DNA from: Tubulanus polymorphus
Lineage: Eukaryota; Animalia; Nemertea
DNA: 64,000 bases
NCBI RefSeq assembly: GCF_964204645.1
Contig: NC_134025.1
Coordinates: 12,896,001 to 12,960,000 of the forward strand
Reading direction: 5' to 3'
A program made the translations under genes and the position numbers. Shown here piece by piece: positions 19,704 through 48,877 of the stretch. The notes below the pieces were generated by a model, which worked only from the letters and a program-made list of their open reading frames with translations, did no database searches and had not been told where the DNA came from. Positions within the stretch are counted from its first letter, which is position 1; every line of letters begins with the position of its first letter.

Positions 19704-19761
19704 TAATTTTAATATATCTTCAGTAGAAAGATTTTAGCCTGGATTCTGTCATTCTGCAGAT

Positions 19762-20183
19762 GGGTCATCCTTATTACCGAGATGACATATTTTACCGAGA
19801 TGAAATGAAATTTAGCATATTTATCTATTCCTTATCGATTTTAACACTTCAAATCATGTTATATCAGTAATAAATACCTTCTAGAGTCATATTTTACATA
19901 TTTTTTTATTTGAAAAAATTTTGACTTCAAATACGTAAACTCGGTTAGCAATAAAATTTCATTGAATTTGATTGATCGACGATCTCATCTCGGTAAAGTT
20001 AAAAGTTATTTTTCTACAAAAATATCCGACAAAATATGTAAAATATGACTCCAGCAGGCATTCATTACTAATATAATATGATATCAATTGTTAAAATCGA
20101 TAAGGAATAAATAAATATGTTATATTTGATTTCATCTCGGTTGATCTCGGTAAAATACGTCATCTCGGTAATATGGATGACCG
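19762..20183. mobile_element. Foldback-type MITE
   Basis: Long imperfect inverted arms starting GGGTCATCCTTATTACCGAGATGAC; flanks CTGCAGAT/CTGCGGAT (8 bp, 1 mismatch). Confidence 0.8.
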
Positions 20184-20261
20184 CTGCGGATTGTCAATCA
20201 CGAGAGGTGCGGATCTGCACTTTTACCCTATTTTGCCAATGGCTATATACAAGGCGCCATA

Positions 20262-22911: not shown

Positions 22912-23090
22912 ATAAGGGTTTTCTGTTTCTTCACAGAAAACCCTATTGAAATTCGCGTGATTATTAGGGTTTTCTGTTACATCACAGAAAACCCTATTGA
23001 GATTCGCGTGTTTCTTATTATTATTAGGGTTTTCTGTTATTTCACAGAAAACCCTATTGATATCCGCGTGATTATTATTATTATTATTTT
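22912..23090. repeat. Three tandem hairpin units (AGGGTTTTCTGT..CACAGAAAACCCT)
   Basis: Directly visible palindromic units, resembling a triplicated Helentron-type terminal hairpin. Confidence 0.7.
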
Positions 23091-24119
23091 CTTCCACACT
23101 ATTTTTACCAAAAGAACATAGGCTTTGTTACCTTACCGCTGTTTCATATACAATCCATATAATATCGTTCAGCTCGCTGAGATCTACAAATAGCCCGCGT
23201 TTTTTTTCACGAATCATCGTTACAAAAGTGCTGTCGGGCTGTAAACATCGAAAATTTAGCCCCATTCACTGGGGCGACATGTTTTTCGAGTCGTCATCCC
23301 GAAATCAACCCGCAGGCCGACTGTCACTTCGATTATCAATTCAAGTATAAATGAACTTATTTATTGCCGCAGACTTCCTATTCAGTCGCGGTCTTCAAAC
23401 AGTGATTTTAACAATAGCCCATTTTCCTCATCAAATCATATTACCGATACACTGGAAATTTACTACTTTAGATTTTAAAAGCACTGTGGAGCCGTAAACA
23501 TCGACGAATCGACGTGTGTTACTACATCGACGTTCCGGGGATGAGCTGCGAGTTTCTCCTCATCATGAGAATCAAATCGAGTACAAATTAATTTATTACT
23601 ACCAGTGATTTTGCTGCGGGTTTCAAGGAGTTAGTTTAACAATACCTATTTTTCTTTACCGAATTAACCGTGTATTTACTAAGATAAATCTTTAGTGTAC
23701 CGGGGAATCGTAGGCCTAAACTAAACAGGCCGAAGAGATATGGCGGAGAAAAGCTGTTATGTCGACGAGGTATCAAAATAAAAGAATATATTACTTTATT
23801 CGGCCGCGGGCTTCAACCATTTATCAATACTCTATATTTCCTACAGTACATACCGATCATTGTCAAATGCACAAGGTATTTACTAAATACAAGTATATAA
23901 CACACTCCTATCCGTATGCTGGACTCACCCTTGACATTCGGAGTAAGCGTTCGTTGTGGGGGAAAGGAGATCGTTCGCTGTGTCGCTTGAAGTGTTTATC
24001 GAGTTTTACGCGACCTTAAGGCTTTAGTATGGTGGCTGATAAGATAAAAAAACACGAATATGCAAATGAGGGCGACATTACGACAAAACGACAAAACTAA
24101 AATAACGCGAGAAAACAAT

Positions 24120-27100: not shown

Positions 27101-28400
27101 GGAAATTTTGAAGATGCTTTGATTAATTACCTTGATCTTTTGTTTATATTTGAATCTACCAAAGGCCCATCAGCATAAGAAAATTGGGTCGATCTGACTC
27201 AAGATGGCCGTCCTATGACCTTTTTAGTGCCCAAAAATGTCAATTTTGGCCAGAATTCTAGGTCCTGTAGCTTCCTACTGGTTTGCCATTTCTCATTGCA
27301 ATTGCTGATGGGTACTCTTTAGAGAGGGATGTTTTATACCTGGGACAGGTATTTTGATCAGCCAATTATAACGCAATTGGCGGCCATCTTGTGTCATCAG
27401 TACTCATTCGTAGGTGGGAAAAAGTTTTTCCACATTAAATTGATACCTAAGCATATTGTGTTACTATATTCAATTGGAAAGTTGTAGCCCATAACGTGTT
27501 CTATGATTTTGGTGAGTTTCAAGGTCATTGGTTTTTGTATGTGGCCATCAGGGGGCGTTGAATAATACAATAACTTAGTATCGCTATATTATATTTGTAC
27601 CAAGGCATATTTTGTTGCCATGATCAATTGCAAAGTTGTAGTTCATGACATCGTCTATGATTGTGGTGAGTTTTTAAGGACATTAGTTATTCCATATAGT
27701 CACCAGGGGGCGTTGAATATTAGAAAAGCTTAGTTTTTCCTTATTAGACTGGTACCTAAGCATAGTTTGTTACCATGATCCATTGCAAAGTTGTAGATCA
27801 TGACATCGTCTATGATTGTGGTGAGTTTTTAAGGACATTAGTTATTACATATAGTCACCAGGGGCGTTGAATAGTAGAATGGCTTAGTATTTCCTTATTA
27901 GATTGGTACCTAGGCATATTTTGTTACTATGATCAATTGCAAAGTTGTATTTCATGACATGTACTACAATTGTGGTGAGTTTTAAGGTCATTGGGTTTTG
28001 CATATGGTCACCAGGGGCGTTGAATAGTAGAATAACTTAGTATTTCCATATTAAATTGGTAACGAGGCATATTTTGTTATCACAATCAATTACAAAATCA
28101 TAGCTGCTCACATGTTCTATGATTGTGGTGGGTTTCAAGGTCATTGGTTTTTGTATATGGTCACTAGAGGGCGTTATGTATTGAAATTGTTAGATTGTTG
28201 AGCATTTGAAACCACTTCCCAAGTGAGCATGGTGTCCCTGGACCCCTAGTTTGGTTTTGTCGCCCGCGACAATTCATTATTCTGGTTTTGTCGCACGCAA
28301 CAATTCAATATTTTGTTTTTGTCGTCCGCGACAATTCATAGTTTTGTTTTATGGCCCCCGACAATTCATTAGTTTGGTTTTGTCCCCGTGGTTTTGTCGG
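24120..28400 (+). repeat. 31-bp satellite array (consensus TTTTGGTTTTRTCGCCCGCGACAATTCAWTA), interrupted at 26847-28250
   Basis: Roughly 90 tandem units; it produces the overlapping spurious ORFs in all three + frames. Confidence 0.97.
26847..28250 (-). mobile_element. Non-autonomous Helentron/HINE-like element, copy 2, inserted in the 31-bp satellite
   Basis: Reverse-complement homolog of 6105-7353 end to end with more internal repeat units; the satellite resumes directly at 28251. Confidence 0.8.
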
Positions 28401-29519
28401 AACATTAAGTTTTTTGGTCGAACAGTGTGTTAAGGTCGTTTTGGAAATTTACTCGGTCTGGAATATTTTGGATTACTGTGTATGTCATTTGTCAGGACAT
28501 TAAACAGAAGACGACTTAGGATACTACCATGCGTGACTCCACTAGTTAGACCGTCTCATTCCAAGATGAGGCGTTCGGTTGATTTCGGTTACAAGTTTTG
28601 TCAGAGATAACTGCTGAGCCATTTGGGCGACCTATCATTGATACTGTTTCCTAATAGCCTATTTAGTAATGGCTGACGTTGAGCCTTATCAAATGCTTTG
28701 TTGAAATCCACCGTTGAACAGGATTCTAAGACTGTGCAGAAAACCTGTTATCGCTGCTTCGCAGCTATATTTATTTTTTTTTCCCTTTTCCACACAGTTT
28801 TTGTTAAAAGTGTAAAGGCTTCCTTACCTTACCGCTGTCGCCGATACAATCCGTATGATATCCTTCAGCTCACTTCAATCTCCAGATACTGCATGGGAAT
28901 TTTGATAAATCCACGTTATGAAGGCACTGTCGAGCCGTAAACATCGGAAATTTTGCTCCGTTCAATTAGTAGCCATGTTGTGTTTTCTTTCCGAAATTTC
29001 TTTCTTCTTTATGAGGAAGAGCTATCGAATTATTCCCTCTCTTCTCCACAATCAATTTCAAAGTCAATTTTATGAATTTATTGCTCAGCGGGCCGAGTCA
29101 AAGGGTTTACGAGTCCGGGGTTCGCGTGTCTGACAGGTTTACAGGCATTTGTTTGTTACCTCTTTAATATTTTTGATTTCTTGTTATTCCGGTTATTTCA
29201 TTTAAGTATATTGCTGATCAGTTCATGTAACCAAAAGCGTCAATAAACAGATTTTGTATTGATCAAGTTTAGATCAAGGTCGTTGAGTCGCGTAGGGCTA
29301 CTAGAATTATGTTCGTCTCAGAGAGAAAACAAACGACAGAAAAGTATCAGGTGATTATCGATAGCCTACTACGGTACACACAGTTGACAGTGTTAGGCCT
29401 GTGCCGGTTGGTGCGCACTGGGACTAAATATACTGGTTGGTCAGTTGGTTCAGTTGTGAAGTGTGGAAGCTAAGAAAGCCTACCAGTATTTATTTTTCTA
29501 TAGGCCTATTATAGTAGCC

Positions 29520-30100
29520 AATACCATTTTGAATACGAAGTTGTAACCCGTATGTGACTGTACGGTGATCTCCACAGGTTAACCGTACGTGAGTTCCCTA
29601 CTAACGCCGTACGTGAGTTCCTAGGCCTAGTACCCAATACCATTTTAATTACGAAGTTGTTACCGTACGTGACTGTACGGTGATATCCACAGCTTAACCC
29701 TACTAACGCCGTACGTGAGTTCCTAGTTCCAAATACTATTTTAATTACGAAGTTGTTACCGTACGTGACTGTACGGTAATATCCACAGGTTAACCGTTCG
29801 TGAGTTCCCTAAAAACGCTGTACTTGAGTTCCTATAATCTGCAAACACGCATGTTTGAAAGAATAGAGTTTGGGTTAGGTGAGGCTAGGCTATTTCTAAA
29901 TCATATTTCATCCACCCTGCAGTTACGTTCCGTGGCACAGTGGGTAAATCACTGGACTACTACTGGATTTTTTTTCGTTTGGTTTCGAATCCCTATATTG
30001 CAAGTCTGAGCATAGCGTCAACATACTCACATATGGCTAACCTGTAGAAATCACCGTACAGTCACGTACAGGTTACAACAGCGTTTTAAGTATAAAGTGA
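29520..30100. mobile_element. MITE-like element with triplicated left TIR, TTAGG-like tract and tRNA-like segment
   Basis: Three direct copies of ..GTGACTGTACGGTGATNTCCACAGGTTAACC.. (29520-29810) and one inverted copy (~30025-30090). Confidence 0.7.
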
Positions 30101-33100
30101 GTACGACAAGCCTACCATGCCTATGTACTACAAACGCAACTTTTTCCCTCTCGTCGGCCCTACAGTGATGTTACTATAACTGGTGCCATTATAACATGGA
30201 TAGGATTAGGTCAGGACTAGCCTAAAGTCTAATTCAGTCTATGTACTAATTCACTCGATAGGCCTATTTCTAAAACAATACAGTGAAGTAACATGCAGAA
30301 AGGCTAATTGATTTGAGCCATGTGATTAAATTTGGCCAGGCCTTCTCTGACCTGCTGACATTAATAGTCAAACCAAAATGTTCATGTGGTCACGGCTTGT
30401 ATACCAAAAATCATTGTAGGCCTGTACATTTTGCTGTTTATAGGTTTGGTATACCGATTTCTCCATTCTTGACTGATAAGTGTACGGTACAGCTGTACAC
30501 ATTATACAATTGTTCCAATGGGAATAGGGCCTAACGTTCATTCAAATATCCAACATTGGTGAAAGTTTGATTACAGTATACGTGTACTGTAGGTTTTCAT
30601 GTTGTATGAATATTTTGCAGTTCAAATGGGAATGATGCTGATTCCAATGTCAAACGCAAGAAGTTAGATGGTCAAGGACAGTCAACACCAATGAAGATAT
30701 CTCTCTTCGACCGATGTTGCACCATAGAAGATCTGATTCTTTCAACTCAAGGAAAGTGATTCAACACGATCGACATAACACTGGAATAGGTTTGCAGTAA
30801 CTAACTGTTCATTTCATTTAGTCCTATGTACTTCTTAGCCAATTTGGATTTGATTGTTATTGAAACTCTGGAACTGTTAACAAAAGACAAGTAAGACAAG
30901 TTGAAAAAACACAAGTTATGCTTGATTCTCATGTTCAAATTTAATTCAAATTCAAATTTATTTTATTACATCATATTTACAAAGCATATCATTGGTTCAT
31001 ACAGTAATAAAAATTAGGACAGAACAAATATTATTACAGAATTTCCAAAAAGGCAATGAATTTCTATAACTAAATGAACATTATTTTTCTAATAACTCAG
31101 ATCAAGAGTGACTCTCCCGTTTATTAGGAAACACACACAACTAGTGGAATAGGTTTGATTTACACACATGTTGCAGGTATCAATTGTTTATCACTATAGA
31201 ATTTGTAATCCATAAAAGCCAAAATCAACATCAGGTGGAAACTCAGACCAAATCAATTCATAATTTATTGATTGAATCTACACTACAATATGTATTTATT
31301 CAAATATTTCAATAAAAACATTAACTTCTTAAATCTATTCTAAATCATAATACGTTCTTATCTGTAAATTTACTCAATCTATCGACTCAGCAGGTGCTTA
31401 AGATGAGTTCTTAATAGGACAGATCCATTTTTAAGCATGGTGATAATACAGTATCATGATGTTTGAATGCCAAAATAAATGCCTGGTCAAATAAATTAAT
31501 ATTTGTTGATTGTACGTCCGCGTATGTTCGGTTTCAAAGCTGTATCATATTTGACGTTTACACAGTGGTTGCATATTAGGTTCGAATCTGTCAATGCATT
31601 TTATTCTATGTATCGATATTTCAATTTACTACAATTCCCATCATTCTGAATGGCTTTGCAGAAAACCCGTCATCACTGCTTAGCAGCTATATTTTATAAT
31701 TCATTTTCTTGTTAGGCTAATATACACTTCCATACACCATGCATTTCAAAGCACCAATGGGTTCCAGTTCATTGTCCATTGTTATTCTGGATTCTGCTTA
31801 AAGAAAACTGGGCTACATACTTCGAACAAGGGAAGCTATTTCAACACCTTTCCGCTCTGATTTTTATGTAATAGCCTATGTACTTCTAAAGACATACACC
31901 TAACTTTACTTCAACATATAAATCCTTGCTCACTAGGAATAGTTGTGTACTAGACCTAATGCAGACAAGTTTTTTTCTTGGATGGAGCTGGGCTTAACTC
32001 GATATTCCTGATATATTTCTGATTAATCAAGCCAGTGCTTAATTTGATGAAAGCACCAATAATGAAAATGTTATTGCTTTTTGCCATTTTAATTGGATTG
32101 AAGTCTGATTAATCAGAAATAGATCTCCGTAGACGTTTTCATTAAAGCTTGATAGTGAGGAGCGCTCTGCGAATGAAATGTACTTCGTTCAGCAATCAAC
32201 TCATTTGTGCCATTATGATCGGTTGCAGACATTTAAAGGACAGACTCCTTATCGATTCTGCCGTCAGGGTCTGCCTAGTTCCGATAGTCGGCACGATTAT
32301 TCATCACGGTTCATCGTTGATGCGGACAGGTTTTTGGTCACGTCACACGGCTCGATTGACCGCTTCCATTGGCGGAGGCCGGTCCATAGAGAATATGGAA
32401 ATATTCCATTCCATACGATGAGGCATAATCCGTTTCCAGTCAATGTCTATGATGGAACTCATCATGATAGAGAGCAATATTTTAGAGAAGCGTGTTTTTT
32501 AGAATACACCGCAGGAGGTATTCCTAACAATATTTTTTTTTTGTTCTTTTGTATTTTTGCATTCTATAAAAAGAACTGTGGTTGGCAATCCTATACCAAC
32601 TAATATCTGTTTTGCGTATATAGAGCGACTTGTAAGTCCACCTTTCGGCTGGGTGCAGGTTAATGTAATTGACCCGCATTATATGTATTTATATTGCACG
32701 TGTCTCTAACTATAAAGATGTAGGTTCAAAATGCGTAGCAAAAAAGTAAGAATATCATTTGATTCATATGACACAATTTTTCAGTCAGGCCTGAAAACTA
32801 AGGCTATGTACGCATGTATTCGGATTGCGAACTCCAGGGGACCAGAAAATATGTTCCTTTTAGCCCATAATTTGTTATACACGGTATGAAATGATTTAAA
32901 TTTGGGATGAAATTTTTGGTTTGTAATAACTGATGAATGATTATATCTGAGGTGGTTATAACTAGGTTCAATTGCAGTAGTCCCTTATGTTTTGGTGACC
33001 CAAGTCTACTCTTTCAACTCATTCTGTTATTTCGATTAAGACTTGATTATTATTCCGTCGAGATCACGAACCGAAGCATTGGCAAACAGCTTGGCAAAAT

Positions 33101-33163
33101 AACATTATATATGCCAAATTAGTATCAATATGTTAAGGACCTAAATGGTTCTCATCTTTTCAG

Positions 33164-36100
33164 AACACGATGTCCGTGATGAAGATTTCGGAAATTATAG
33201 CTATAACAGAGGTGGTAGCTGGAGTTCATGGAGAGGAACAGGACGTAAGAGCCAAGGTTATCGTGGAGGCAACCGCCGAAGCAGCGGGGGATACCGGGGT
33301 GGAGCCAGAGGCGGCTACAAGAAAGATAAAGGTAAGCTTAGGATCAAGAAGTCTTCTGATAAAAAGTGATGTTCATTTTGTTGGTAGTTTTTGTATCTAA
33401 TCTACATACAATGCGTTTAAACATAGGCCGATTTGTCATAATTTCATTTAAAAAGACTTTAAAAAAAAGATTTTCAACAATTGACGCAAACGAAATTCAG
33501 GGATCAGTTTCAAATTAGTTAGGTGCAGATTGTGGAGGTAGTACATTTTGAAATAAACTTATGAATAGTGAGCTTGAATGAATTCGTGTGATTTTTACCA
33601 AAAAAAATTATATTCTTTGTTATGGACTTTCGATTTTCATAAAAACTTCTTGATTCAATCAAGGGGGGACATCTTAGGCTTTTTTGATTACTTGGAGCAA
33701 GGATTCTCTGAAATTCTGCCAAAAACTTCGTGCCGAAGATAGGTATGCGTTTCCATTCATAATTTGAAAAAAGAAATTAAAAAAAAAATATTTTCGTCCA
33801 TATTTTCGATCTGATTGTCTGTAAAAGGTCAGTTTTCTCCCATCATTTGAATTCAATCCAATAGAGTTTTCTCTCTTTTTGATTTGTTCTACTTAATCTC
33901 TAGAGTATCAATGCTGGATTAAACATACACTTGTGTAAATTTAGGAAAGTCCATATAAGAATTATATTTCATGTTTTTTTTCATAAGTTACTATAGCCAA
34001 AAATAACTATAGAGTCAAAACTAATACTTAAGTATACGGCTTGAAAGCTCAAAACAAACATGATGAATATGTTTATGTACAGTTTTACTTGGCTTTATTC
34101 TATCAATTTATGGAGTAAAATGGTCTTTGTAGTCAGGGATGAGCATTCCCCGTGGATTTCGGTATTGAAAAATATCAATTTTCCAAATAGTCCAAAAATG
34201 ATGTAAAAGTATGGGGGGGTGGTGATCATCTCATTCAATTGGTCTGGCGCGATCGGTAATCAGGTGAACCGTAAAAGCGTTCAGAGCCTGTTTTACTTAT
34301 CGTTACGTAAAAGCATTTCAATGCATATTCACTGCAACACAGTGATTTTGTATCTACATATGTACTACGATGAGTGTGTATGTATTTTATCGATCGGTTG
34401 CAGACACGCGCGTGCGGCTACAGTAGTAATGTACATAGGCCTACTTACTGTTGCCGCGCGTGTGTGGCGAACGCCTTCAGAAATTATACACTACTGGGTG
34501 ATGATTTTTAGTGAGCATTCATCGACGCATTTTTACTGCAATAATTCAGGGCTTGACCCGTAATGCATGAGATGCTGAATGTCATCGAATGAGGATGTAC
34601 CACATTGGAACTGGCCATTACCTTCCAAAATATAATAGTCGTTTATGGGTTCAAGATCGCTCTAAGTGCTCGGAAAACGCATTTAATTTCTAAAATTTTC
34701 TTGGGGGAGGGCCCTAACCCCCCGAAATAGCTTCGCGCCTTCGGCGCTCGCTAGTGCTGACGGCTATGCCGTCAGCTGGTTCGCGTGTGCAACTCAAGAA
34801 AAAAAAACCCGCGGATTTTACAGGTCGGCGTTCTCATCCCTGGTAGTACCTCTTGAAATTCCACTGACAGGTTTTCAAATTGCAGGAGTGAATCCTCTGT
34901 CGAGACTAGATGACGATGAAGATGTTGATATGGTTGGAACCGGAGGGCCTGAAACATCGCGTCAACGTTATAACCCTTACAGTAAAGGGGGACGTCGTGG
35001 TACCAGTTCTAATCGAGGCAGAATTAATGATTCAGGTATGGAATGTCTACATTTTAAACAAAGCTTTGCTTCCTGTAAACGGTATTTTACTTGCTCCGTT
35101 GAATGATATTTTTCAATGTATAAAAACAGTATGATATTCTCACCATCCGTTATGGGAACATGCAAATATATATATATAGAGGTAGCCTACGGCCCAGGGT
35201 GCTGTGCATCAAGCATGCACTAGAGGGACAGAATCTTTTTCCCACTACAACCAAGCTTTTCGTATCTAGACCTTTCCACAATCATACCAAGGCCGCACTA
35301 AATATACTTACCGAATATTTGCAGGGTGAGAATAGCATAAAAAAGGGTTATGCATTAATTTTCTTCCACCATCTGTAGACATAATCAAGTTTATTTTTGG
35401 GAGATTATTGAAAACAACTGGAGATAAAAATTTGGTCTGATCGGAATCAAATTGGCCGCCATCGATATATGCCAAAATTAGTACTATTTACACATTGTTG
35501 GTATCGGAAATATTGCAGGCACATCAACTATTTCTTGAGGTTTTTATATGTAGGCCTATATTAATCACCCTAGGGTCCATAAGCTAAGATAAATCGAGTA
35601 GATAGCTATCATCGTGCTGTAGTATTCTTGCACACATCGCAATGATATTATAATATTGTAGTCAAGTAATTCACTCTGATAAATTTGACACACTTCTCAG
35701 AAGCCATGTGTGAAGCTGAAAAAAATCCATTTTAGGCCCGAAGCTTCTTTATGTTTTCCATAAATAACATTGAAATTTAAGAAGATACATTTTGAAAAGA
35801 CATCTTAAAAATATCAGATTTGTTTTTTTTTTTCAATTAGTTAAATTTTGTGCATATATGTCCCTGGAACCCTTAAATGTTTCATGTACAGTTACCGTGT
35901 TAATTTTGCTTGGATTTTCAGTTACTAAAAGATTAGGAATGCCATTTCGAGATACTAGAGGTGGGAGGCGGGGCGGGCGCGGCAGCAGGTCTGGAGGCAA
36001 CTACAACAGTGGACCCAATGCGTGGTACAGAATTGTGGTAAGTAACTGGTGAATCAACATATTTGAGTTGTATAATTAAGGTCATGCATGGGCGTCCCCA

Positions 36101-39100
36101 GGATTTTTTTTCGGGCAGTTCGATTTTAGGAGGTCTGAGGTCCTCCCACAGAAAATTTTTGAAAATTCCTGCAAGCAGGCACATTCTGGTGCAATCAGAG
36201 GCCGAAAGGTAGGTAGGCTACCATTTACTTTGCATGTATCGATTCTATTTTCCTAATTTAGCAAATGCAGAACATGTGCCCACATTCGTCGTCGTTTGAA
36301 AATTCAAACTACTGAACCCCCCTAGGGACGTCCATGATATGTTCTAGTTTAATATTGTTATGGTAGTGTTCTGGAATAAGATTGAGGTTAATCGCTCGGT
36401 GCCCCAGTGACATACATGTATGTCTCAATTTCGGTAAATTCTATGATGACACTGGATGTACACCTAATATCATGTATTAACTGTGCCTTATTTCCAGTTG
36501 CGATCTGGGATAAAAAAAGGAAAAATACGGCAGGCTTTACCTCCCTCATAGGGCATGGGTAGTAATGCCAATGTCAGGATATAACCATTGTGACTGCTGT
36601 TTATACCCTTGAGAAATAATGACATGTAATTCATGGATATCTGAATATAGATTACAAGTTGATATGTTCTAATTAAAGATACCATATGGACGAAAAGCTG
36701 ACAAGGATTTCATCCTCAAAAACATCACTAAGCTTTCAGATTTGCCATTTGTTCCACACCAGGTAACCATATAATTGAATTTTCAATCGACTTTTTGTTG
36801 TTAATAATCAATCGGAAATTGTTTCTCTAATGATGATCATCTATCTATTACAGTTTCACTTCGAAAACAATAATGCAGTTTTCTTAGTTCAAGATACTCG
36901 GGTCGCACAAGCTATCCGCTCAGTCAATAAACGCATCACCATGCCTAATGGTTTTAAGGTATTGATTTGAGATATTATACCTTGTTTTCTGTAGAATTAG
37001 GGCCTGTACTAGTATTTATTTTTCGACATCTTATAAAGTACTGTTTGATATAGCGGCATGGCAGGTGTCATGCTAGGGCTGGATTGCAACTGGTAAACGG
37101 ACATCGTTCAAATCAGGGATAATCCGACCCAAAGAAATTTTACAAATTAAATACATTCCAAGTGATTGTGAAATCCAACTGAGATATAATATATAATATA
37201 TTTTATTTCCACTAAATATTATAATATATCATTATACATTATAAAAATGAAGTGAAATGAAATATTTTAATATTAAGCAGGGGAGACTTGAAGAAGCCGG
37301 TTAATGTCAAACGAGCAACTTATGTCAAACGAACAGTCAGTCCCCCAACAACGGGGACTATATATATATATCAGTCCATATATAATTGAATAATTTATTG
37401 GATGGGGCATTGGATGCCTAGTTAGTTTGAGAGCAAGTTAGAGCAAAATATGCATATTGAATAAGGTTCTTAATTTCATTTTAGAAAAGCTAATAGCAAT
37501 TTACCTCTGGTATCCAAAAATTCAACATTCAATAGGTGTTAAATGTTTATACATTATCAGATTATTCAACACCTAGAGATGGTGATAAGTTTTAGTCTAC
37601 TTATCTTGTGATGATTATAGCAGAATTTGACAGTGACATCAGATTACGTTTTTGTTTGTTTGCAGATGATAATTACAATGCAGGAAACTTCACCTCCAAA
37701 CCCGCCACTGGATGATGACACAGTAGAGAAATTAAAGGTACGTAATCTATTTTGAATGCGACACCTTTTCACTGAAACTGAACAAAGATATTTTACCTCA
37801 CACTCTGTCATTGTCAAATGGACCAGGCATTCTGTAGCCTACTCATTTAAAAATGTTCTTGGTACAATTGCTGAGATTTATTTGAATACTCAATATTGAT
37901 TTGGATTAACTTCAACAGATTTCCTCGTGAATATATGTATATCTTATCGTAACTGATTCATTGGCCTTATGAATGTGGAAACAATCGTATATATCCATAA
38001 TATATATTTTGTATATAAGAGAAAGTGCACACTCTGTCTCATGTCCGTTTGAATATTCCTGTTATTATTATCATTGAGGTATTCATTGTCGACTGTTAGC
38101 TTCCAAGTAGGATGAATGTTCTTCTACAATTTGAAAGTTTATTCATCTTTTGTTGTAGCTCTGCATGAGTAATCGTTATGATCCACAAACTAAGTCACTT
38201 AACTTATCAAGTCTGGCCACTGATGAAGGTAAGCGACGAAATTTTCATCATTTCAGGGGTTAACGATCTCTACTCATAGCACTGAAAGAGTTGTATGAAT
38301 AATATTTTCAGAGTTGTCGAAGGAAAAGATTTTCCTGCCATTGTCTCGAGTAACTGTGTTCGATAAAGTTGTGGCCATAGTCGAGGAGTTTATTCCAGAA
38401 GTATGTGAAATAACTTTTTTAGAATTTCATTTTCAGCTCCAGCAAGCAATTGCCATTTCTATTTAATAACTAAATGTAAAGGAGCTTGCTTATATAGATA
38501 ACTGCATAAAACGTTTGAAAGTTTGTGTTGCAACCTACGCTGTCTGTAAATTATAGATCATATGCTCTCAAGATTTTACTTTCTGAGAATAGTCATCCAA
38601 ATGATACTTTAGTATAGGCATATAGCTGCATTATGTGACAACCTATGATTGGCCTGATAGGAAAAATATCACTGATTAGCCTCAAATTTATTTAGCCACT
38701 CAATCCTGCTTCATTTTACAGCAGTGCCATGTTTTATGACATGGTAGCAAGAGTATACAATAGTGAAAATTCAGACATTCTCTAAAGCTGCAAAAGGATG
38801 AGATACCTTGAAAAGTGTGAAGTGATAAGAAAGTAACTCCTTCTACTGTATAAAGATTTAGCTTACATAAATTTCACATTAATGTACCACTTATGTTCCC
38901 TTTGTTTGTAGTGTTCTATGCTATGATTTTAATCATCCCAAATGATTAATTTTTTTCATTGAATTTTTCAATTGTTTTTAAGGTGGAGTCGATTGACCTG
39001 TCTGAAAACAAATTGTACAATCTACTGTCGGCATCAAAATTAAGCAAAATGAAGAATTTGAAGAAACTCAATCTGTCAAAAAATGTGGTATGTAGCTAGT

Positions 39101-42100
39101 ATTCACGGATAAGTGAATTAGTACTCACGGTCTGAGATGTTGTTGATAATTTCAATGTTGTCATGATAAAATTTTAGCTGCGAACTGAACGAGAATTGGA
39201 TAAGATTAAAGAACTTAAACTGGATGATTTGACGCTCGATGGTAATCCGATGTGCGACGAGTTCAAGGAAAGATCGGCCTATATTAGGTAACTCCTGTTA
39301 TTACTCCAATCACAGTGCAGTGATGGTAGTACCAGTTACAGATGCTGTCAAAACAAAATTAAATCTCTCGTACAGTCACTGCAGAAACCTGATTGTTGAA
39401 TAGCTTTTTTGGGCTCTGCACAGCAGCGTAAATTTTGCTTTCTTCAGCGTTAAATAGTAGTCAAATTTTTTTTAAGCCAAAAATAACGATGGTTACTCGA
39501 TTCACTGAAAAGATTCATTCCCTCCTTTTGAACCTATAAGGCAGTCTTTTGAATTGGTAAAATTGGTGTGAAATCTGAGAAATGTTTATAATTATTTATT
39601 CATAGATCAATAGATGATTGAGAAGAAAATCAAGTGTAATTTTGCGGCACCAGTCAATCACCAGGTTGTCTTGTCCACTGATCATGTCACTAATGATGTT
39701 CTGCAGTCAGCACTGAATTTATTCATTATTGGCCATTATTGCACACATTCTGTATCATATATGATTATTTAAGCCACTACTACCCTTCACTCATATATTT
39801 ACTGATCAAAGGAAAACTTAGTTCACACCGTATCTAGGAAGCTGAATAAAACCTTTCCCAATACATCCTTGAGCGATGGGAATCGAACCCAATGGAAAAT
39901 GCTTTCAGAGAATAACCACACCAAAACTCACGATACACAGATTTAAAGAAAAAGAACGTGGAAATTTTGTTCAAGTTTAGATTTGTATATGCTAGATTTT
40001 TAAATTCATGTATAGAAATTTCCTATTTGTATTGCCATAATTCATGCTTGCTCTGTCAGTGGCGTTTGTTTCGTCGTGTTCTCGAGGCATTAATCAAGAA
40101 TGATGAACATGGCACAGATTCGTGACACGTGCCGATGACGGGTAAGTCTTCCAGAAGGGGAGCAACCTAAGACAGACACGTGATCAGATCTGTTCGTAGT
40201 ATCTCAATCCCTGCCACTTTCATATCATAAGATAATGAGGTACTAGACGGCGCAGGTGAGATTAATTGGATTGAACGATGCCCACGCAGCAGCAAGTTTT
40301 TAATTCCTCATCAGTTTAGGATCAAATTTGTTTTAAAAGCTTTTTTGGGGTCAAATTGCTTTGGATGATGAGATTTCAGAGAATTATAAACCATTACACC
40401 ATTAACCTAAAAACATTTGGATATTTCAAAATTCCTTGGTAGTGTAAATTTCACAAACTAGAGCTTTGTGATAATTGTGGACATCTATCCTGTGTGTTTT
40501 CCTTGGTCTACAGGATGCATCTGATAAAACTTTTCATCATGATCTATTATATTTCTCTGGTTATTATCGAAATGAAGTAATTTCATAGATATCTGTTTAT
40601 TTGTTTTTCGTGGGAAACAAGACAGCTTTATTATCATAATGAGGAATGAAATATTAATTTCAGAAAGAAATCGAGTTCTATTGCCAAAATCTATAAACAT
40701 TTTTGAGCCTATTTTTGTCATAATGGCTTTTGCAAAGTAGATTTTTTGGGTTACATACACGTGATATGTCTGTACAATATAGCAATGTATTGTTCTGCTC
40801 TTGGGAGTCAAGAAGGTAATTCTTAGGACTGTCAGTTCATTGATGGTTTCAAAGAACTGACTTATTCAATTTGCAGACTCCTAGCAGAGGTGAGTAAATG
40901 TCCTATGATGTTTATACTAATTTAGCATATCACCTCATTGCTGATGTAATCTCTTTGATGCTGTATCGTGATGTATTTAGCTTAGCATTTTCTGTGCATC
41001 AAAATGTTTTCTTTTTCAGTGCTGTTCGAAGCAGGTTTCCCAAAGTCTTGAAATTGGTATGTTTCTTCCTTTTTAAATACATGTATACTTATTGAAATGA
41101 ATTTATTGTATTATTGAACCGTATATGATTGATATACCAATTCTGCTATGATTCGTTTTTAGGATGGACTTGATTTGCCACCGCCTATTAAATTTGATAT
41201 TCCTACGTCGACTGAGTTACCTAAAACGCTTGGCAGCCATTTTCCAAATGATGAAGTTAAGAATTTGCTCATACAGTTCATGGAACAGTACGTTTTTGCA
41301 CATGCTCAGCCTTTTACCTTGCGCATACCTTAGGCCATCCCAAAATAATGGTCTGTTTGCCGTAACCCGACCGACCCAACTTCAAAGGTACCGAGTGAAA
41401 GGTTCTATCTACCTACCGACACCCTGAAAACTTGAGTCGGTGGTATGGCAAACAGACAATTGAGCTTGGGATGGCCTTAGCAAAAATTGTCTTAAAAGAT
41501 TTGATTCATTATCTATAAGTGCAAGTGAATATCACGTCATTCATGCAGTGGACTATCTTTGTTTGACAGCTGAAATATTTCCCTGCAATTTTTTAGTCAC
41601 GATTACCATTCAGGCTTAAAGAATTACTTAGGTTTCAGGGCAATTAAATTTCTTTTGATTCAAAATTCAACTGCTTTTTAACTTCCTGAGAATCCACAAA
41701 TGCAGCTCACGTTTATAGTGATCTCTTTGTAATGTTAAGCTGAAAAGAATTTAATATATGTAACTTCTATGATGTAGTAAAATTCCCATTGCAACAAAAC
41801 CTACATTTCAACTTATAATTGTTGTTGAATTTCAGATATTACCAGCTTTATGATTCAGATGATCGACAGGGACTCCTCGAGGCCTATCATGACCAGGCTA
41901 TGTTCAGCTTGAATGCATCATACCATAGTCTCGATAGTAAAGATTCTTCAAGGTAAACACTACATCGCTTAATCCACAAAATGGCAGAACCTCATTTTTA
42001 GGAAATCTTTTAGGACCACGAGAAAGGGATCTTTAGAATATTATACTTTTTGACCACTCAATTTTTACTAAAGCCTTAAACTCATCTGTCCTAATACATA

Positions 42101-45100
42101 GGTGTCGCTCCATAGATGTCCTAATGTCATAAACTCATGAAGCTGATTTCAATGAAATTTTTGTATGTTTCCTTGTACACCATTTAGACCAGAAAATGTT
42201 AAAGGCAGAAAATGTTATCGCTGCTTTGCAGCTACATTTGAAAAGTACTGATTAAAGCCATTAATTTGAATCGTCCATCACCGATTCATACGCAGCACTG
42301 CAGTGTCGACACACTGAAAGGGTTTATAGTGGATTTCTTTCCAACTTCATTAGGGCTTGTTTAAGATATCTTACACCCTGAAACTGGCATTGCAGTGGAG
42401 TTTGCATTACATAGGTGGTACAGCCAGGGCTTTCAAAATGATTTGAAATACCAGTGGCAGACAAAGAAATAGCACTTGCAAATTTTTTCCCGACCACTGG
42501 CACATTGCTTGTTCTCACGGAAATATTTAATTATCTTGAGGTTACGAAAGCTTATTCATTGAAAATTTCATGGACATTCTTAAAACAGATTCTCTGTCTA
42601 TAAAAGCACAATAATAGTGATAAAAGCCAGGAATCAGGAATAGCGTATACATGAAATTGCATATTTTCATTTTTAGAAATATCAAATTAATTGATTTGCT
42701 AGTGTAAGTGACTGCAGTAATGGCAATGAGTAACTGTTGATTGGTTAAGCAGCCAGCTTAAAGGGCAAATGCCATCAAAATTGTACTTTCCGCGATTTCT
42801 TAACCAGAAGAAACTTTAGTATACTTATAACGACCTTAGATGTGACTTATTGAAAAAGGAGCACGAATTAGCCGTAATAGTTATCTATTTATCCTTCACT
42901 CCATGCGTATAGTTCATATTCAACCCGCGGGTGGCGCTATTTATGATGTTAACGATGACAATCAACACAAGCACATGTGCCCGCTATTACGCGTAGCCTA
43001 TGTATAATCGATAAAATAAACACCATTTGTTCACCGTATTCACTGACCTACAGTGCTACTCACTTATATATGATTATCATGGCATATACAACAGTAGCAA
43101 CACTTACAATGGCAAGAGTTTATTTATTCAAATCACTCCTAAAACGATAAAATACCGCATGAAATGTCTAGTGAAATGACTGGAAGCGGCGAGCGTTTGT
43201 CAGAGATGATGTCAGAAACACGCACCTGCGAACATAAACAATAACAGTGACCACGTGCTGAAATTGTTGATTTGAAAGTGATATTTCTCAGTAATGGCTG
43301 AACTAAAATTCAAACCAGTTCCATATTTGATATTTGTGAATACATCACATTTGAAAATGAATTTTACACAATATTCTATTTTGATGGCATTTGCCCTTTA
43401 AGAACACATTAATGCTACTGGCTACCCAAACTAATTGTCTCTGCGAGTGTCTTTGTGAGTTCACCGAACAAAGTTTTCACCTTGTGCATATGAAATAGGC
43501 CTATGTCTAATAGTCTTGATAATAAGATCCTGAGCATCAACGATGTGTTCAAAATTAAACAATTCATCTAATATACACTACTCCTTAAACACCGGCAGTT
43601 GTTTAGAAGGCAGCCAATTTTTCCTGGAAACTTAAACTAGGCCACGCGTCTGAGGCACATTTTCACACGATGCACACTGACTACAGTACATTTAAATATA
43701 ACCACTGATCACAGCTATTATACTATCATTGACATCAGACGAGATATTTCATAGCTGTCACAGGATTCTTACTAACAGTCAGATGCGACGGCCGACAGCT
43801 TATTTTGAAAGCCCAGACAGTGTCTTAAGTTGTTGGAACTTCCTCAGTGTATTAGTTATAGAAATCAGATTTAACTTAAAAGCTAATGAGCGCACTCAGA
43901 AAGTGATAGTCCCCAGTAGTATTTAAGGTAGAAATGTATTGAGTTTATCAAGCTGTATGCACTTTCAATCACGTGTATGAGTAGAAAACCAGCATTTTCA
44001 TGGTGTGAAAAAAATGTTGAGCAAAGTTCTGCATTACTCCTTGTTGCAAAACTTGTTACTACATCTCTACGCAATAGTTACATCTATGATATTGATTTTT
44101 GTATGTTTTTTTTTGCAGACGCTCGACAGTATTAAATGACTACATGCCAGAAAGCCGGAATTTACTTAAAATTACCGATGGTGGTAAGTTTGTTACTTTC
44201 CTGTCAATGCATAATCTATATGACTAGCAATTGGTCTAATGTTGCCTGACTCGACAACAACTCAACAATGACCTGTTGCCGCCAAAACACCAAACGCCAT
44301 CGAGCAAAGTGGCAGCACTCAATGGGTTGACTAACCCGGTTACATATATCCATCGCAGATACCAAAAAAGCTATCCAAAAAAGCTGGTTGATCAAATTCA
44401 AGATTGACTGACGCTATGATCAATTTTCTCTATATTTCGTATGTAGGGCCTATATGTATCCCCTGGGCCTACCATCATCTGGTGACTTAACTAACTGTAG
44501 ATGGTCTAATGATCAATGAAAATGGCTTACCATCAAGCATCGAGACATTGGACGAGACTCTTTGAAGATAGCTCAATTCATTGGGTAATTTAATTAGCAT
44601 TTAGTTTGTATTTGAAAATAAAGTATAAATGTTTGTTTTTAAATTTTGCAGCACGACGACAAAAGTCATTACGTATCGGCAAATTGAATGTTGTTGCGTT
44701 GATGTGTCAGCTTCCAAAAACACAACATGATCCAAATACGATTAATGTGGATGTTAGTGTTGTCACTGTAAGTGAATTGTCATACATAGAAATCTTCTCT
44801 GATAAATGGGGAAAAGGTGATGTGGTTATCTGACGAACTTGGGAGGGGTGAAATGGGAATAAATGGGTTTGTCGAATGGCTGAGGACTAAGTTCAGTAAA
44901 TGTAATACCAATTTGGTTCAGTATAGCAGTGCGAATAGTGGCACAGTAAAGAGCCAGTCAGATTACAGTTTAGTTAATTTACGCTTACACTCATAATTTG
45001 GCCTGTTCCCATTTATGCACTTTTCCAAACCATTCTTGTGGTTGTTTCAAGGACAAAGGTCAAAGGGGCAAAATTGAATTGGAGCTCTACTAAAGGGTGG

Positions 45101-46917
45101 TGATGTGATGAATAGTAAAAAATTGGTAATATGACGAATAGAAAAGAAGTGGGGGAAAGGGGTGCCAAAATGAGAAGATACCAACTGGTGTCTTGACCTT
45201 TATTCACCTTTTTATCTTGAAAAGTAGTGTTTGTTGTGCTGAATTCAAATTGTATTGCAAAGTTATTGTACATTAATTTGTTCATGCAGCTTTAGCTTAT
45301 TTTTCATATTACCAGTACAGTACCTTATATGTTTTTACATTTTTAGTCTACCATGATGGTATTTACAATAACTGGTGTTTTCAAAGAAAGTAAGTGCCGA
45401 TTTTTCATTTCCAGTATTATTTTGCATGCATTAACAAATGTTCAGTTTAGCCTACATGTATTACCAAAAATACATAAAGAGGAATCAAATCCTCTTAATG
45501 TATTTTTGGTATTACTTAGCTATTATCATACCTTTCAGCTACTTTTAGAAGTTTTATTTGGTACAATCCTTTACATCATCACAGAATATAAATGAAATAT
45601 ATATAGATATTTCATATATTGCATTTTTTTCCATGGAGTCTTGGCAGGAATTCCTTAATTGTCTTGTGGGTGACCTCTTAGAAAAGCGAATGATAAATGA
45701 TGATAGAACTTTTCTGGTATAAAGAAAGCTTTCAAAGATTTGGCAGTGCCTGGAAATGAATGGCATTTTCAAATAAATTAATTTTTTTTTAAATTTGGGG
45801 GACCCCTAGTAAGGGCGTCATCCCTCAAGTGTTTGCATCATTGAACTGATTATCATTGTCAATAAGAACCCAACATTTTTGAGGCGCCCTATTAGTAGAG
45901 CACTTACCATTTTAAGAGTCTAAGCCATGAATCGAGGAGGCCATCACCAAAAATGCTAATATTCATCGCAAAATTCATGTATTTAGGAATTCAAAAAATC
46001 TTGGCAGTCAACAATTATATTTGTTTTTTATTTTTTAATGTTACACACTTAAGCATTTTGAAATATATTCATGTAAACCATATTAATGAATTAATGTTTT
46101 TTATGGTACATTGCAGCTGAAAATCCTGACAGAATCCGTGCATTTAGTAGGACCTTTGTTACAGTTCCGCAAGGAAGTGGGTATGTCAAAGATTTTCAGC
46201 CTTTTACTTGTTTTAAAACATAGCTTTAAGCAAAGATGGCTTAAGTGGTCTGTCATATAGAATATGGTTGTGTGCAATAGGTGATGATAGTGGTATTGCT
46301 AGTATTTGGATTGGGGTTTAGGAGCATAAATGCTTAACTCAAGATGTGTCTCGACTGAAAAGCAAATTTTGGTAATCACATTTGATAGACTACCAGTTTG
46401 TGTGGACTAAGTGAAATTTAATGCAAGCTATAAGCCGCAATCACACGATTTGGCCCGGGCCAAATTGGCACGGATCAGGCTCGGGCCAAATTTGCAATCC
46501 AGTTATTGATAATCTTAGTTTGCAATTTTTTAACACCTTGGTGCATGCACATATTGAAACTGAGTAGTCGATTGCTGCTTAGTTATGTAATTTCACAAAA
46601 CTCTTTGTAAATTATTGAAGGACCAGTTATTGCTGACCCTGGTTGAACTTTGTCGTTTCAGGATTGTTATCATCAATGAACAGTTATCCATCTTTAATGC
46701 GAGCATCGGATTAAAAAAAGTGAGTTATTTCACATTTTTGTGTACAGATACATAGAGAATAGACTGATACATAGAGAATAGACTAATGCCTGATGCGCTG
46801 AAGTTGGAACTTGAGAAATTAAAATGTCAAAATAAATTGAATAGATATTGTGTAAATGTTAAAACCTTTGAAGAACAGATTGATGTCAACCAAGACATTA
46901 TTATATTATTATTATTA

Positions 46918-46984
<67 letters not shown>

Positions 46985-48877
46985 AAAATAAAATATTATT
47001 AAAAAGAAATAGATATTATTATATTAAGACATGCATTTGATTAGCTGCACCTACTAAGTAGCTGCAGCGATTAATATACCATATTGGAAAAACACATGAC
47101 TGAAAAAATCTAATACATGTATACACATTTGACTAGTTTTCAGCCATTAAGTACATGCATGAATCGTAGAGGAGCGGTGTGGTAAGAGCGTCCGGCTCTG
47201 GGAAGCCAGGTCTTGGGTTCGAACCCCGTACATTACCGTAGTGTCCCCGGGCAAGACACTTATCCTCATTACCTCTCTCCACCTAGGAGTAAATGGGTAC
47301 CTGGCCTGATAGATGAGTGCTTGTTAGTAGCTCATATGTTCTACTCCCCATGGAGAGATGACTGATACATGTTAGTGTATTTAACAGCTGGGGTGATAAT
47401 ACCGAATGTAAAGCGATCTGAGCAGCTTCGCTGCATTTAGCGCTTTATTAGACAATTGTCGTGACAAGATTTTTCATTTGCGAAAATTGCAAATTCTCAA
47501 AATTACAAACATCTTACCAAAGCCCTGGTGGAAAAAACTGCCATTTTATTTTTTGAATAGCACACCTCTAGACCCCATCTAAGAAATAGAAATAACACCA
47601 TATTTAGTTAGGGGTTAATCACTCATGCAATTTTCAGTTGATAACAATTCTTGCAAATCTGCAGTTGTTCTTTGGGTTTGCGTAACAGAAGGTTTGTTCT
47701 TTTTTGAGTTGATAATCCATTGATTTTGAAAACGGCAAAAAGGGGTTCAAAGGATGTGTTAGCATTGAAATAAAATAATACTAACTCATTTCTCTGCTTA
47801 TTTTTGTAGAAATCATTCCAAACGAACACAGCGCCGACCCCATCACCCAGTCCACAGCCATCTCCAACCGTAGTATCATCACAAACTACTGACCAGCAGG
47901 CTGAAATGGTGCGATCGTTTTCACAACAGTCTGGTATGAATGCAGACTTCTCCATGAAGTAAGTTCATCAATCATCACAGTTCATCTTAATCATGAATGA
48001 ATCAGTAAATCATGAAAGAAAGAATTGCTTGCAAATACTTCCTAATGAAGGTCTAGTCCCTAAATCAGTAGAAGGCTGTGTTGTGTAGTTATTGGATGGA
48101 CGTTATGATAAGTCCACACTTATAGTTTTTCCAGATAAGGAATATCTGGCTTAACCGCTTCATTTGATAAACCTGTCCCAAGAATTTTGCACTCAATTTG
48201 TGTTACTGACCTACAATATTTGAATTCTTTGCAGATGTTTGATGCAGAATGACTGGGATTATGAAAAATCGGCAAAAGTGTTTTCTGATTTACATGTAAG
48301 TTCTGGTTATATGTGCATTGTCTGTGGCTCTACCTCAGATAAGTTTTTTCCCTTTGTGCTTTTGTACTACCAGTAGATCTAGGAGGGGGTTTTCGGCTGC
48401 CCATTGATTTGAAAAAGTAATCATCAAAAGCTACAAATTTGACACCCATTCTCTCACAAATTTTATTTTTGAATTTGTAGCACAGAGGGGAACCCCCTTC
48501 GGCGTCATTGTTTTACTCAAGGAATCCCCCTTCCTTTTCTTATGGACAGCTCGGCCTCTTTTCCAATTGTATAAGATATCCCCCGAAGTCAAAACCTTAT
48601 GATAGAACAAGTAGCAAACCTTGACAGAACAGACAGAAGCATTGCCATTCCCTTGTTTTTCTCACACGTGATGTCATAGTTCGTATGCCCGTCAGTGTTG
48701 TAGACTTGCCATACATAACAACAAAAGATAATATGGTCATTTACAAATTTCGGATATATAAAAGCGCATGTCTGCACGGTGTCCATATATAAATCCCAAG
48801 TAGTTAAGCGATGTCTTTTTTTATCGTCAATTTTGCAGAGTAAAGGTGCCATACCTCCGGAAGCATTCGTCAAGTGA
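33164..48877 (+). CDS. NXF1: Nuclear RNA export factor 1 (TAP/Mex67 family), multi-exon; 5'-most coding exon(s) unresolved
   Basis: GT-AG exons in consistent phase: 33164-33331, 34886-35035, 35922-36037, 36679-36762, 36854-36958, 37666-37737, 38159-38228, 38312-38400, 38983-39087, 39178-39287, 41020-41056, 41163-41287, 41836-41952, 44119-44183, 44652-44767, 45347-45389, 46117-46180, 46662-46719, 47810-47958, 48235-48295, 48839-48877 (TGA). Translation gives an RG-rich N-terminus with RYNPY (PY-NLS-like), RRM ([14 protein letters not shown]), LRR ([52 protein letters not shown]), NTF2-like domain ([25 protein letters not shown]; [12 protein letters not shown]; IINEQL) and UBA/TAP-C ([36 protein letters not shown]). 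Confidence 0.97.
36087..36335. mobile_element. MITE (CATGGGCGTCCC termini), related copy at ~53073-53339 in the opposite orientation
   Basis: Shared TIRs and internal sequence (TTCTGGTGCAATCAGAGGCC..CTTTGCATG vs its reverse complement at 53190-53245). Confidence 0.7.
39288..41019 (+). other. NXF1 cassette intron, positional ortholog of vertebrate intron 10 / Drosophila sbr retained intron
   Basis: Lies between an exon of exactly 110 nt (39178-39287) and one of exactly 37 nt (41020-41056), the conserved arrangement around the retained intron of animal nxf1 genes. Retention itself cannot be seen in DNA. Confidence 0.9.
40114..40193 (+). promoter_or_regulatory. Constitutive transport element (CTE)-like cis-acting RNA hairpin, single NXF1-binding loop
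   Basis: CCGATGACGGGTAAG (40132-40146) ... CAACCTAAGACAG (40163-40175) matches the two strands of the MPMV/SRV CTE internal loop as I recall it (CCAATGACGGGTAAG ... AACCTAAGACAGG). Closing helices: GGGT 40140-43/ACCT 40165-68, CACGTG 40126-31/40177-82, TGA 40123-25/TCA 40184-86, ACAGAT 40114-19/ATCTGT 40188-93; apical CTTCC/GGGAG stem. Confidence 0.9.
42762..43397. mobile_element. Kolobok-like MITE in an NXF1 intron
   Basis: TTAA|AGGGCAAATGCCATCAAAA ... TTTTGATGGCATTTGCCCT|TTAA; internal part is homologous (inverted) to ~3490-3585. Confidence 0.85.
46897..46984. repeat. (TTA)n microsatellite
   Basis: Directly visible. Confidence 0.97.
47169..47450 (+). mobile_element. tRNA-derived SINE with L2-like 3' tail
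   Basis: A-box-like GGTGTGGTAAGAGC, B box GGTTCGAACCC, body GGGCAAGACACTT..GTAAATGGGTACC, tail GTAAAGCG..GAG..AGCGCTTTAT. Confidence 0.8.

What the first reader, a model, noticed from the sequence alone, without database searches (positions are those of the whole stretch)
40114..40193. Retrovirus-type constitutive transport element (CTE) inside the NXF1 gene of an invertebrate
Seen: both strands of the CTE internal loop (GATGACGGGTAAG and CAACCTAAGACAG) occur in the right order and spacing. They are closed by four complementary helices whose sequence differs from the viral stems but still pairs. The element is in the sense strand of the intron between the 110-nt and 37-nt NXF1 exons. Known: this motif is the NXF1 RRM-LRR binding site of the MPMV/SRV CTE, and a CTE in NXF1 intron 10 exports the intron-retaining mRNA in mammals and fish. 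To my knowledge the Drosophila retained intron has no such CTE. Inference: the NXF1-CTE self-export loop predates vertebrates, and the retroviral CTE may copy an ancient bilaterian cellular RNA element. The 5' arm here is nearly identical to the viral sequence as I recall it.
Basis: partly seen in the sequence, partly recalled or inferred. Interest (0 to 1): 0.95.

Follow-up and report, generated by a model that had tools for sequence, protein, structure and literature searches.

The report
Ribbon worm NXF1 intron export element
A ribbon worm's main mRNA-export gene carries, in an intron that stays in part of its RNA, the same small RNA motif that vertebrate versions of this gene and monkey retroviruses use to export unspliced RNA, so this likely self-regulating device probably dates back to the common ancestor of worms and vertebrates.

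Summary
The window encodes NXF1 of the nemertean Tubulanus polymorphus: 22 exons reproduce the NCBI protein exactly. Both CTE arms (40134-40146, 40163-40175) lie on the sense strand of the 1732-nt intron at the position of human intron 10. They fold into one 6x6 loop with AAGACA unpaired; chance is about 2e-8 per such intron.

New evidence: a run with spliced contigs holds the whole intron (depth 15.2 against 19.2 spliced) while both flanking introns are absent. A second, non-gnathostome NXF1 gene (L021) has the same element in the same intron. Across three copies, 8 of 18 pairs change on both sides.

Corrections: it is the single-loop cellular type, not the doubled retroviral type. A C-A mismatch lies next to the loop, and the host-origin idea is already published. 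Binding and export are untested.

Papers searched report the element only in mammals, zebrafish and coelacanth. This scan noted it earlier in a sea urchin (unchecked note). A protostome copy points to an origin in the common ancestor of protostomes and deuterostomes. Verdict: new member of a known kind.

The parts
40114..40193 (+). Single-loop CTE hairpin (80 nt, 51% GC in a 35% GC intron)
40134..40139 (+). 5' strand of the internal loop (GAUGAC; AAUGAC in L021 and L010)
40169..40174 (+). 3' strand of the internal loop, AAGACA, the NXF1-binding motif named in PMC4174252 and PMC4330393; mean P(unpaired) 0.91
40140..40168 (+). Upper arm: invariant GGGU/ACCU helix (40140-43 with 40165-68), G40146-C40163, variable helix 40148-52 with 40158-62, 5-nt cap
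   Evidence: 4 of these 10 pairs change on both sides among three copies, 100% of cells paired
40139..40147 (+). 5'-splice-site-like word inside the element (GT at 40142); 8 of 9 matches to the recalled consensus, against 5-7 of 9 for 19 real donors of the gene; not seen used as a joint
   Evidence: the same feature is noted for vertebrate CTEs in PMC4338338
40114..40133 (+). 5' side of the lower and basal helices (pairs with 40175-40193); C40132 faces A40176
39288..41019 (+). Host intron, 1732 nt, 11th coding intron of isoform X2, at the position of human intron 10; covered end to end by one contig of a spliced-RNA run
39178..39287 (+). 110-nt NXF1 exon (end of the LRR domain)
39286..39291 (+). 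Read-through codon and stop (AG|G TAA): the intron-retaining RNA would encode a 376-aa NXF1 that ends one residue into the intron; the same arrangement in L021
41020..41056 (+). 37-nt NXF1 exon
15945..48858 (+). NXF1 coding region, 22 coding exons, identical to XP_074662388.1 (T. polymorphus NXF1-like isoform X2, 666 aa)

Best explanation
This is a single-loop CTE motif in a partly retained intron of the ribbon worm NXF1 gene, likely the inherited counterpart of the vertebrate NXF1 intron-10 CTE, and it is predicted to bind NXF1 itself and so let the intron-keeping mRNA leave the nucleus. Shown: gene, species, intron position, motif, a contig spanning the whole intron in a spliced-RNA run, and a second non-gnathostome copy whose stems change but keep pairing. 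Predicted: the fold with AAGACA unpaired. Inferred from vertebrate work: NXF1-NXT1 binds the loop through its RRM and LRR domains; the strong 5'-splice-site word inside the element binds U1 or competes with the real donor and favours retention; the exported RNA either makes a 376-aa NXF1 lacking the NTF2-like and UBA domains or is degraded by NMD. Either way NXF1 would divert part of its own transcripts, a feedback on its own level.
For: Exact intron orthology: human short NXF1 has 356 aa, 18 of them intron-encoded (PMC5170612), so the intron follows residue 338, and the 110-nt exon here aligns to human 303-338. Motif chance is about 2e-8. Run X2 shows three precise GT..AG skips and one 1790-nt contig over the whole intron at depth 15.2 against 19.2 for the spliced joint; the depths of the bins over the flanking introns are fully explained by exon contigs. 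L021 has six NXF1 exons, then the same element 909 nt into the same intron (850 nt here), and the element is the only significant similarity between the two introns (E 1e-7). L021 is rejected as a gnathostome (p-AU 0.002). Three copies: 94% of cells paired, 8 of 18 pairs change on both sides, 0 of 500 shuffles. NXF1 residues Y126, R128, K276, Y278 and R307 of the published contact list are kept, and K304 is R.
Against: No binding, export or translation data. Retention rests on one contig of one run that is not on record as RNA; contigs show neither strand, poly(A) nor compartment, and depth is a poor measure. The flanking control introns are short (90 and 106 nt); retention of the gene's other long introns was not measured. 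Runs X7 and X8 show no intron contig (X8 has only two short exon pieces at depth about 4; X7 only repeat matches). The element departs from the other two copies at the loop base (G40134, C40132-A40176). Only 9 of 20 listed contact residues equal the mammalian ones and R233 is A, although two teleosts score 9 and 6 of 20. Covariation rests on three rows, one of which (L010) has no NXF1 exon in its 2.4 kb. Another hairpin in the intron is more stable.
Confidence: 0.7

Rival explanations
1. Same ancient element, but in this animal its main job is to hold back splicing. NXF1 or U1 bound at the element keeps the intron in, and the RNA is detained in the nucleus or destroyed; export and a short protein are minor.
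For: The element holds the best 5'-splice-site word of the gene, unused as a joint. The stop follows at once, so the RNA is an NMD candidate. Contig data cannot tell nuclear from cytoplasmic RNA.
Against: In vertebrates the same loop drives export and translation (PMC4338338, PMC5170612). The loop letters, not only the splice-site word, are kept in all three copies.
Confidence: 0.2
2. Convergent origin: NXF1 binding selected the same RNA loop independently in vertebrates and in spiralians.
For: Any NXF1 intron is the natural place for an autoregulatory NXF1 site. An AAGACA loop occurs in an unrelated gammaretroviral element (PMC4174252). Fly and nematode lack a detectable CTE.
Against: The same one of 21 introns, a similar offset and 12-15-nt identical runs on both arms, including letters outside the loop, in at least two non-gnathostome genes.
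Confidence: 0.04
3. A retroviral or retroelement fragment, or vertebrate contamination, put the element here.
For: 16 of 21 metagenome hits lie in, or cluster by sequence with, retrovirus-like loci with the same arms.
Against: One loop only, no second half-site within 250 nt. No long ORF on the + strand of the intron. The exons encode the T. polymorphus protein exactly. DNA reads of another study cover the element with no listed difference. Grouping the protein with gnathostomes is rejected (p-AU 0.002).
Confidence: 0.02
4. A decaying relic that no longer binds NXF1 in this species.
For: Two departures at the loop base and R233 to A in the protein.
Against: The rest of the intron has no significant similarity to L021 while the loop and the invariant helix are intact; the stems still pair; the intron is retained.
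Confidence: 0.04

Closest known systems
Cellular CTE in intron 10 of vertebrate NXF1 (Wang, Rekosh, Hammarskjold 2015, PMC4338338; Li et al. 2006, recalled)
   Same: Same gene, intron position and strand; one AAGACA loop; a 5' splice-site word beside the loop; intron retained; early stop giving a short RRM-LRR protein.
   Different: Host is a protostome, whereas the paper reports mammals, zebrafish and coelacanth and finds none in birds, reptiles, C. elegans or Drosophila. The element is mid-intron (850 nt from the donor, 844 from the acceptor), not nearer the donor. The intron adds 1 residue, not 18. Function untested here.
Type D retrovirus CTE (MPMV, SRV-1) and doubled CTEs of retrovirus-like loci L002, L004, L007, L013
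   Same: Both arms stand in the SRV-1 half-CTE primers; 12-nt and 13-15-nt identical runs with the fetched loci.
   Different: Those have two loops in two-fold symmetry (162 nt in MPMV; crosswise pairing in L004) and lie in retroviral genomes. This one has one loop in a cellular intron.
Retained intron of Drosophila sbr/nxf1
   Same: An intron-containing nxf1 transcript in a protostome (PMC8151460).
   Different: No CTE found there by BLAST, and whether SBR binds that transcript is called unknown.
Gammaretroviral gamma-CTE (PMC4174252)
   Same: AAGACA in a loop, NXF1-dependent.
   Different: Otherwise a different stem-loop inside pol, needing several copies for an effect.

Membership tests
Cellular NXF1-intron CTE | Sense strand of the NXF1 intron equivalent to human intron 10 | tested here: met
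   The 110-nt exon aligns to human 303-338 and the human intron follows residue 338
Cellular NXF1-intron CTE | Internal loop with unpaired AAGACA, closed by GGGU/ACCU above and a helix below | tested here: met
   Predicted fold only; one C-A mismatch next to the closing pair
Cellular NXF1-intron CTE | One loop, not two | tested here: met
   One 5' and one 3' half-site within 250 nt each side
Cellular NXF1-intron CTE | 5' splice-site sequence beside the loop | tested here: met
   8 of 9 matches at 40139-40147; feature named in PMC4338338
Cellular NXF1-intron CTE | Structure conserved across species while the intron diverges | tested here: met
   Three copies, 8 of 18 pairs with double changes, 0 of 500 shuffles; only similarity between the introns; small n
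Cellular NXF1-intron CTE | Host intron retained in transcripts | tested here: met
   One run: whole-intron contig at 15.2 against 19.2 spliced, flanking introns absent; poly(A) and compartment unknown
Cellular NXF1-intron CTE | Sequence similarity to the 53-nt human/fish core | not testable with these tools
   The alignment stands only in figures of PMC4338338; no call returned a vertebrate NXF1 intron; Rfam gave no match at gathering or a relevant one at E 10
Cellular NXF1-intron CTE | NXF1 surface that contacts the CTE | tested here: inconclusive
   9 of 20 listed residues identical to a mammal; teleosts 9 and 6 of 20; other invertebrate rows 2-9 of 20
Cellular NXF1-intron CTE | Direct NXF1-NXT1 binding and export of intron-containing RNA | not testable with these tools
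   Needs bench work
Type D retroviral CTE | Two loops in two-fold symmetry | tested here: not met
Type D retroviral CTE | Lies in a retroviral genome | tested here: not met
   Lies in a cellular intron with no retroviral frame

The most novel reading that the evidence does not exclude
The CTE is an RNA ligand for NXF1 that already sat in this intron in the last common ancestor of protostomes and deuterostomes. Its loop has stayed nearly letter-for-letter while half of the protein's contact residues changed. It works as a combined switch (decoy splice site plus export loop) by which NXF1 sets its own level and makes a clean RRM-LRR short form. Flies and nematodes lost it; betaretroviruses captured and doubled it much later.
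Probability: 0.65. Interest if true: 0.72.

Novelty: new member of a known kind. Interest (0 to 1): 0.62.

Why it matters
The papers found here place the cellular CTE in bony vertebrates only, and its absence from fly and nematode made it look like a vertebrate feature. A copy in a nemertean, in the same retained intron, moves its origin to the base of protostomes and deuterostomes and turns the fly and nematode state into loss. It strengthens the published case that retroviruses took the element from the host. It also supplies natural stem variants and a divergent NXF1 surface, which make the rules of CTE recognition and the purpose of short NXF1 testable by comparison.

Tried and rejected
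Rfam: no match at gathering in the window; three irrelevant weak matches at E 3-10 in the region. No whole genome is held, so NXF paralogues of this species were not checked. Viral-contig scan with a stricter 22-base pattern: 0 hits. Genome-contig scan: 14 hits, used as chance background; one (L029) forms the same helices by chance, so the fold alone is not diagnostic. Of the 21 metagenome hits, L005, L011, L018 and L019 look like chance matches (L018 partly forms the helices), L003 has an envelope frame and one set of half-sites, and 15 fall into three families with retroviral frames or second half-sites. Naming the animal behind L021 by protein search found nothing; the tree places it outside vertebrates but in no phylum. 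L010 has no NXF1 exon in its 2436 nt. No RNA holder is on record among the runs listed. DNA reads of run X5 differ at 6 places in the intron and none in the element, but only about 0.3 would be expected there (hand estimate), so this is uninformative. R249, recalled as decisive for CTE function in quail versus human, is R here but also in most invertebrate rows, so it does not discriminate; no paper confirming the recall was found. Papers not held: Teplova 2011, Ernst 1997 and two further ids typed from recall.

Full report
Gene and organism. Single exons of the window match human NXF1 chains in the PDB (E 5e-10 for the 110-nt exon; E 3e-6 for the 125-nt exon). The 125-nt exon is 100% identical to a protein named NXF1-like isoform X2 of Tubulanus polymorphus (XP_074662388.1). 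A chain of 22 coding exons from 15945 to 48858 reproduces that 666-aa protein exactly. It carries the Tap RNA-binding, LRR, NTF2-like and TAP_C domains. T. polymorphus is a palaeonemertean, thus a lophotrochozoan protostome. A tree that groups the protein with gnathostomes is rejected (p-AU 0.002; 19 of 46 rows used).

Position. The element lies on the sense strand of intron 39288-41019, between exons of 110 and 37 nt. Human short NXF1 is 356 aa with 18 intron-encoded residues (PMC5170612, passages), so intron 10 follows residue 338. With human numbering anchored on a mammalian row, which puts R128, K304 and R307 on the published contact positions, the 110-nt exon spans 303-338. The intron is therefore at the same position; it is the 11th coding intron here.

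The element. The two arms are at 40134-40146 and 40163-40175. A 20-base gapped pattern finds it once in the window and in 0 of 100 shuffles, and 14 times in 596 Gb of prokaryote genomes, about 2e-8 for an intron of this size. The predicted fold has a basal helix, a lower helix (P about 1.0 for 40126-40131), a 6x6 loop GAUGAC/AAGACA, the GGGU/ACCU helix (P 0.89-0.96) and a capped upper helix (P about 0.74). z is -2.7 for the 80-nt span (3 of 200 shuffles), -1.3 to -1.8 for three other spans and -0.75 for 131 nt, so stability alone is modest. C40132 faces A40176, and the closing C-G pair has P 0.66. Both arms stand in the SRV-1 half-CTE primers printed in PMC4330393 (passages), and AAGACA is named as the NXF1-binding loop motif in PMC4174252 and PMC4330393 (passages). 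The element holds the best 5'-splice-site word of the gene, 8 of 9 against 5-7 of 9 for 19 of its 21 donors (consensus recalled). Wang et al. note such a site in vertebrate CTEs and suggest U1 binding.

Intron retention. Ten runs were listed, four holding the stretch, all four from one study, none on record as RNA. Four of the ten were laid. X2 has contigs that skip 90, 1732 and 106 nt at GT..AG, so it behaves as RNA. It also has one 1790-nt contig from 39258 to 41047 that covers the whole CTE intron and about 30 nt of each exon, at depth 15.2 against 19.2 for the spliced joint, a rough share of 0.44. The bins over the neighbouring introns read 8.53, 4.7 and 0.45, exactly what the exon contigs alone give, so genomic DNA is not the source. 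Limits: one run, contigs only, no strand or compartment, short control introns; the gene's other long introns were not measured. X7 and X8 show no intron contig at low coverage. DNA reads of X5, another study, cover the element with no listed difference. If retained, the intron gives AG|G TAA, a 376-aa protein with RRM and LRR but no NTF2-like or UBA domain.

Other copies. The metagenome scan gave 21 loci. L021 holds six NXF1 exons of 105, 78, 70, 89, 108 and 110 nt in one open frame, followed by the same element 909 nt into the intron and the same immediate stop. Its best identity is 47% to Lingula. It falls outside the vertebrate clade (100/97) and is rejected as a teleost or gnathostome (p-AU 0.004 and 0.002); its phylum is unresolved. 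L010 has a single-loop copy in AT-rich DNA without exons, so its gene is unproven. The element is the only significant similarity among the three sequences (E 1e-7 to 7e-6). On their alignment, 18 pairs are formed in 94% of cells and 8 change on both sides; 0 of 500 shuffles reach this, and slid controls give 0-2. The structure came from folding these sequences, and three rows are few. Sixteen other loci are retrovirus-like: 15 cluster into three families, members of which carry pol, dUTPase or gag frames and second half-sites, and L003 has an envelope frame. In L004 the two halves pair crosswise, the doubled viral architecture. Four loci look like chance.

Protein side. Of 20 contact residues listed in PMC4330390 (passages), 9 equal the mammalian ones in Tubulanus, including Y126, R128, K276, Y278 and R307; K304 is R and R233 is A. 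Two teleost rows score 9 and 6, and the zebrafish system works, so this neither proves nor excludes binding.

What is known. PMC4338338 (abstract, introduction, first results sections, discussion and passages read) reports the CTE in over 30 mammals, zebrafish and coelacanth, finds none in birds, reptiles, C. elegans or Drosophila, states that cellular CTEs have one loop, and argues that retroviruses took it from the host. PMC6478720 (passages) gives 96 nt and one loop against 162 nt and two loops. PMC8151460 (passages) mentions a fly intron-containing transcript with unknown SBR binding; PMC7551171 (passages) added nothing on this. Searches for an invertebrate CTE gave 0 papers or nothing relevant in the listings. 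The library lacks most subscription journals, work of the Mamon and Golubkova group on this intron (recalled) was not seen, and supplements were not read, so a prior mention cannot be excluded. This scan's notes hold an unchecked report of the same element in a sea urchin and of conserved structures in fungal MEX67 introns; nothing similar by sequence or place.

Verdict. A real element, very likely homologous to the vertebrate NXF1 intron-10 CTE (about 0.93), most likely acting as an NXF1-bound export and feedback element (0.7). It is a new member of a known kind. Its value is the protostome host, the retention evidence and a second non-gnathostome copy, which together date the element to the protostome-deuterostome ancestor. 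Interest 0.62.

Noticed in passing
window 40792-40895 (+): A second, more stable branched hairpin in the same intron, about 125 nt before the acceptor (-35.6 kcal/mol, z -3.2, 0 of 200 shuffles, span chosen after a scan). Its 3' arm is flanked by acceptor-like and donor-like words 13 nt apart, like a hidden micro-exon; no such joint in X2 and no match in L021 or L010.
   Followed up: partly
window 39286-39291 and L021 2091-2096: In both non-vertebrate genes the retained intron gives a stop right after the first codon, so short NXF1 would have no real intron-encoded tail, unlike the 18 residues in mammals.
   Followed up: partly
L001, L002, L004, L006-L009, L012-L017, L020; L003: Three families of retrovirus-like loci with a doubled CTE in metagenome assemblies, and one locus (L003) with an envelope frame and only one set of half-sites within 250 nt. 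In L013 the element follows gag and dUTPase frames closely, suggesting an internally deleted element.
   Followed up: partly
L010 570-612 (-): Single-loop CTE closest to the window's copy (15-nt identical runs on both arms) in 2.4 kb of AT-rich DNA without exons; probably another animal's longer NXF1 intron.
   Followed up: partly
window 16003-33163: The first coding intron of isoform X2 is 17 kb and holds a long low-complexity repeat array at about 24100-28400.
   Followed up: no
window 41330-41400: A high-copy short interspersed repeat with inverted-end features, depth over 1000 in DNA reads and present in many contigs.
   Followed up: no
window 53400-57000 (+): Frames that look like an astacin-type protease with a CUB-like part (read by eye, not searched).
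   Followed up: no
P0018 (swan NXF1), position 249: Q at the position where other vertebrate rows have R, in line with the recalled quail substitution that blocks CTE function and with the reported absence of a CTE in birds.
   Followed up: no
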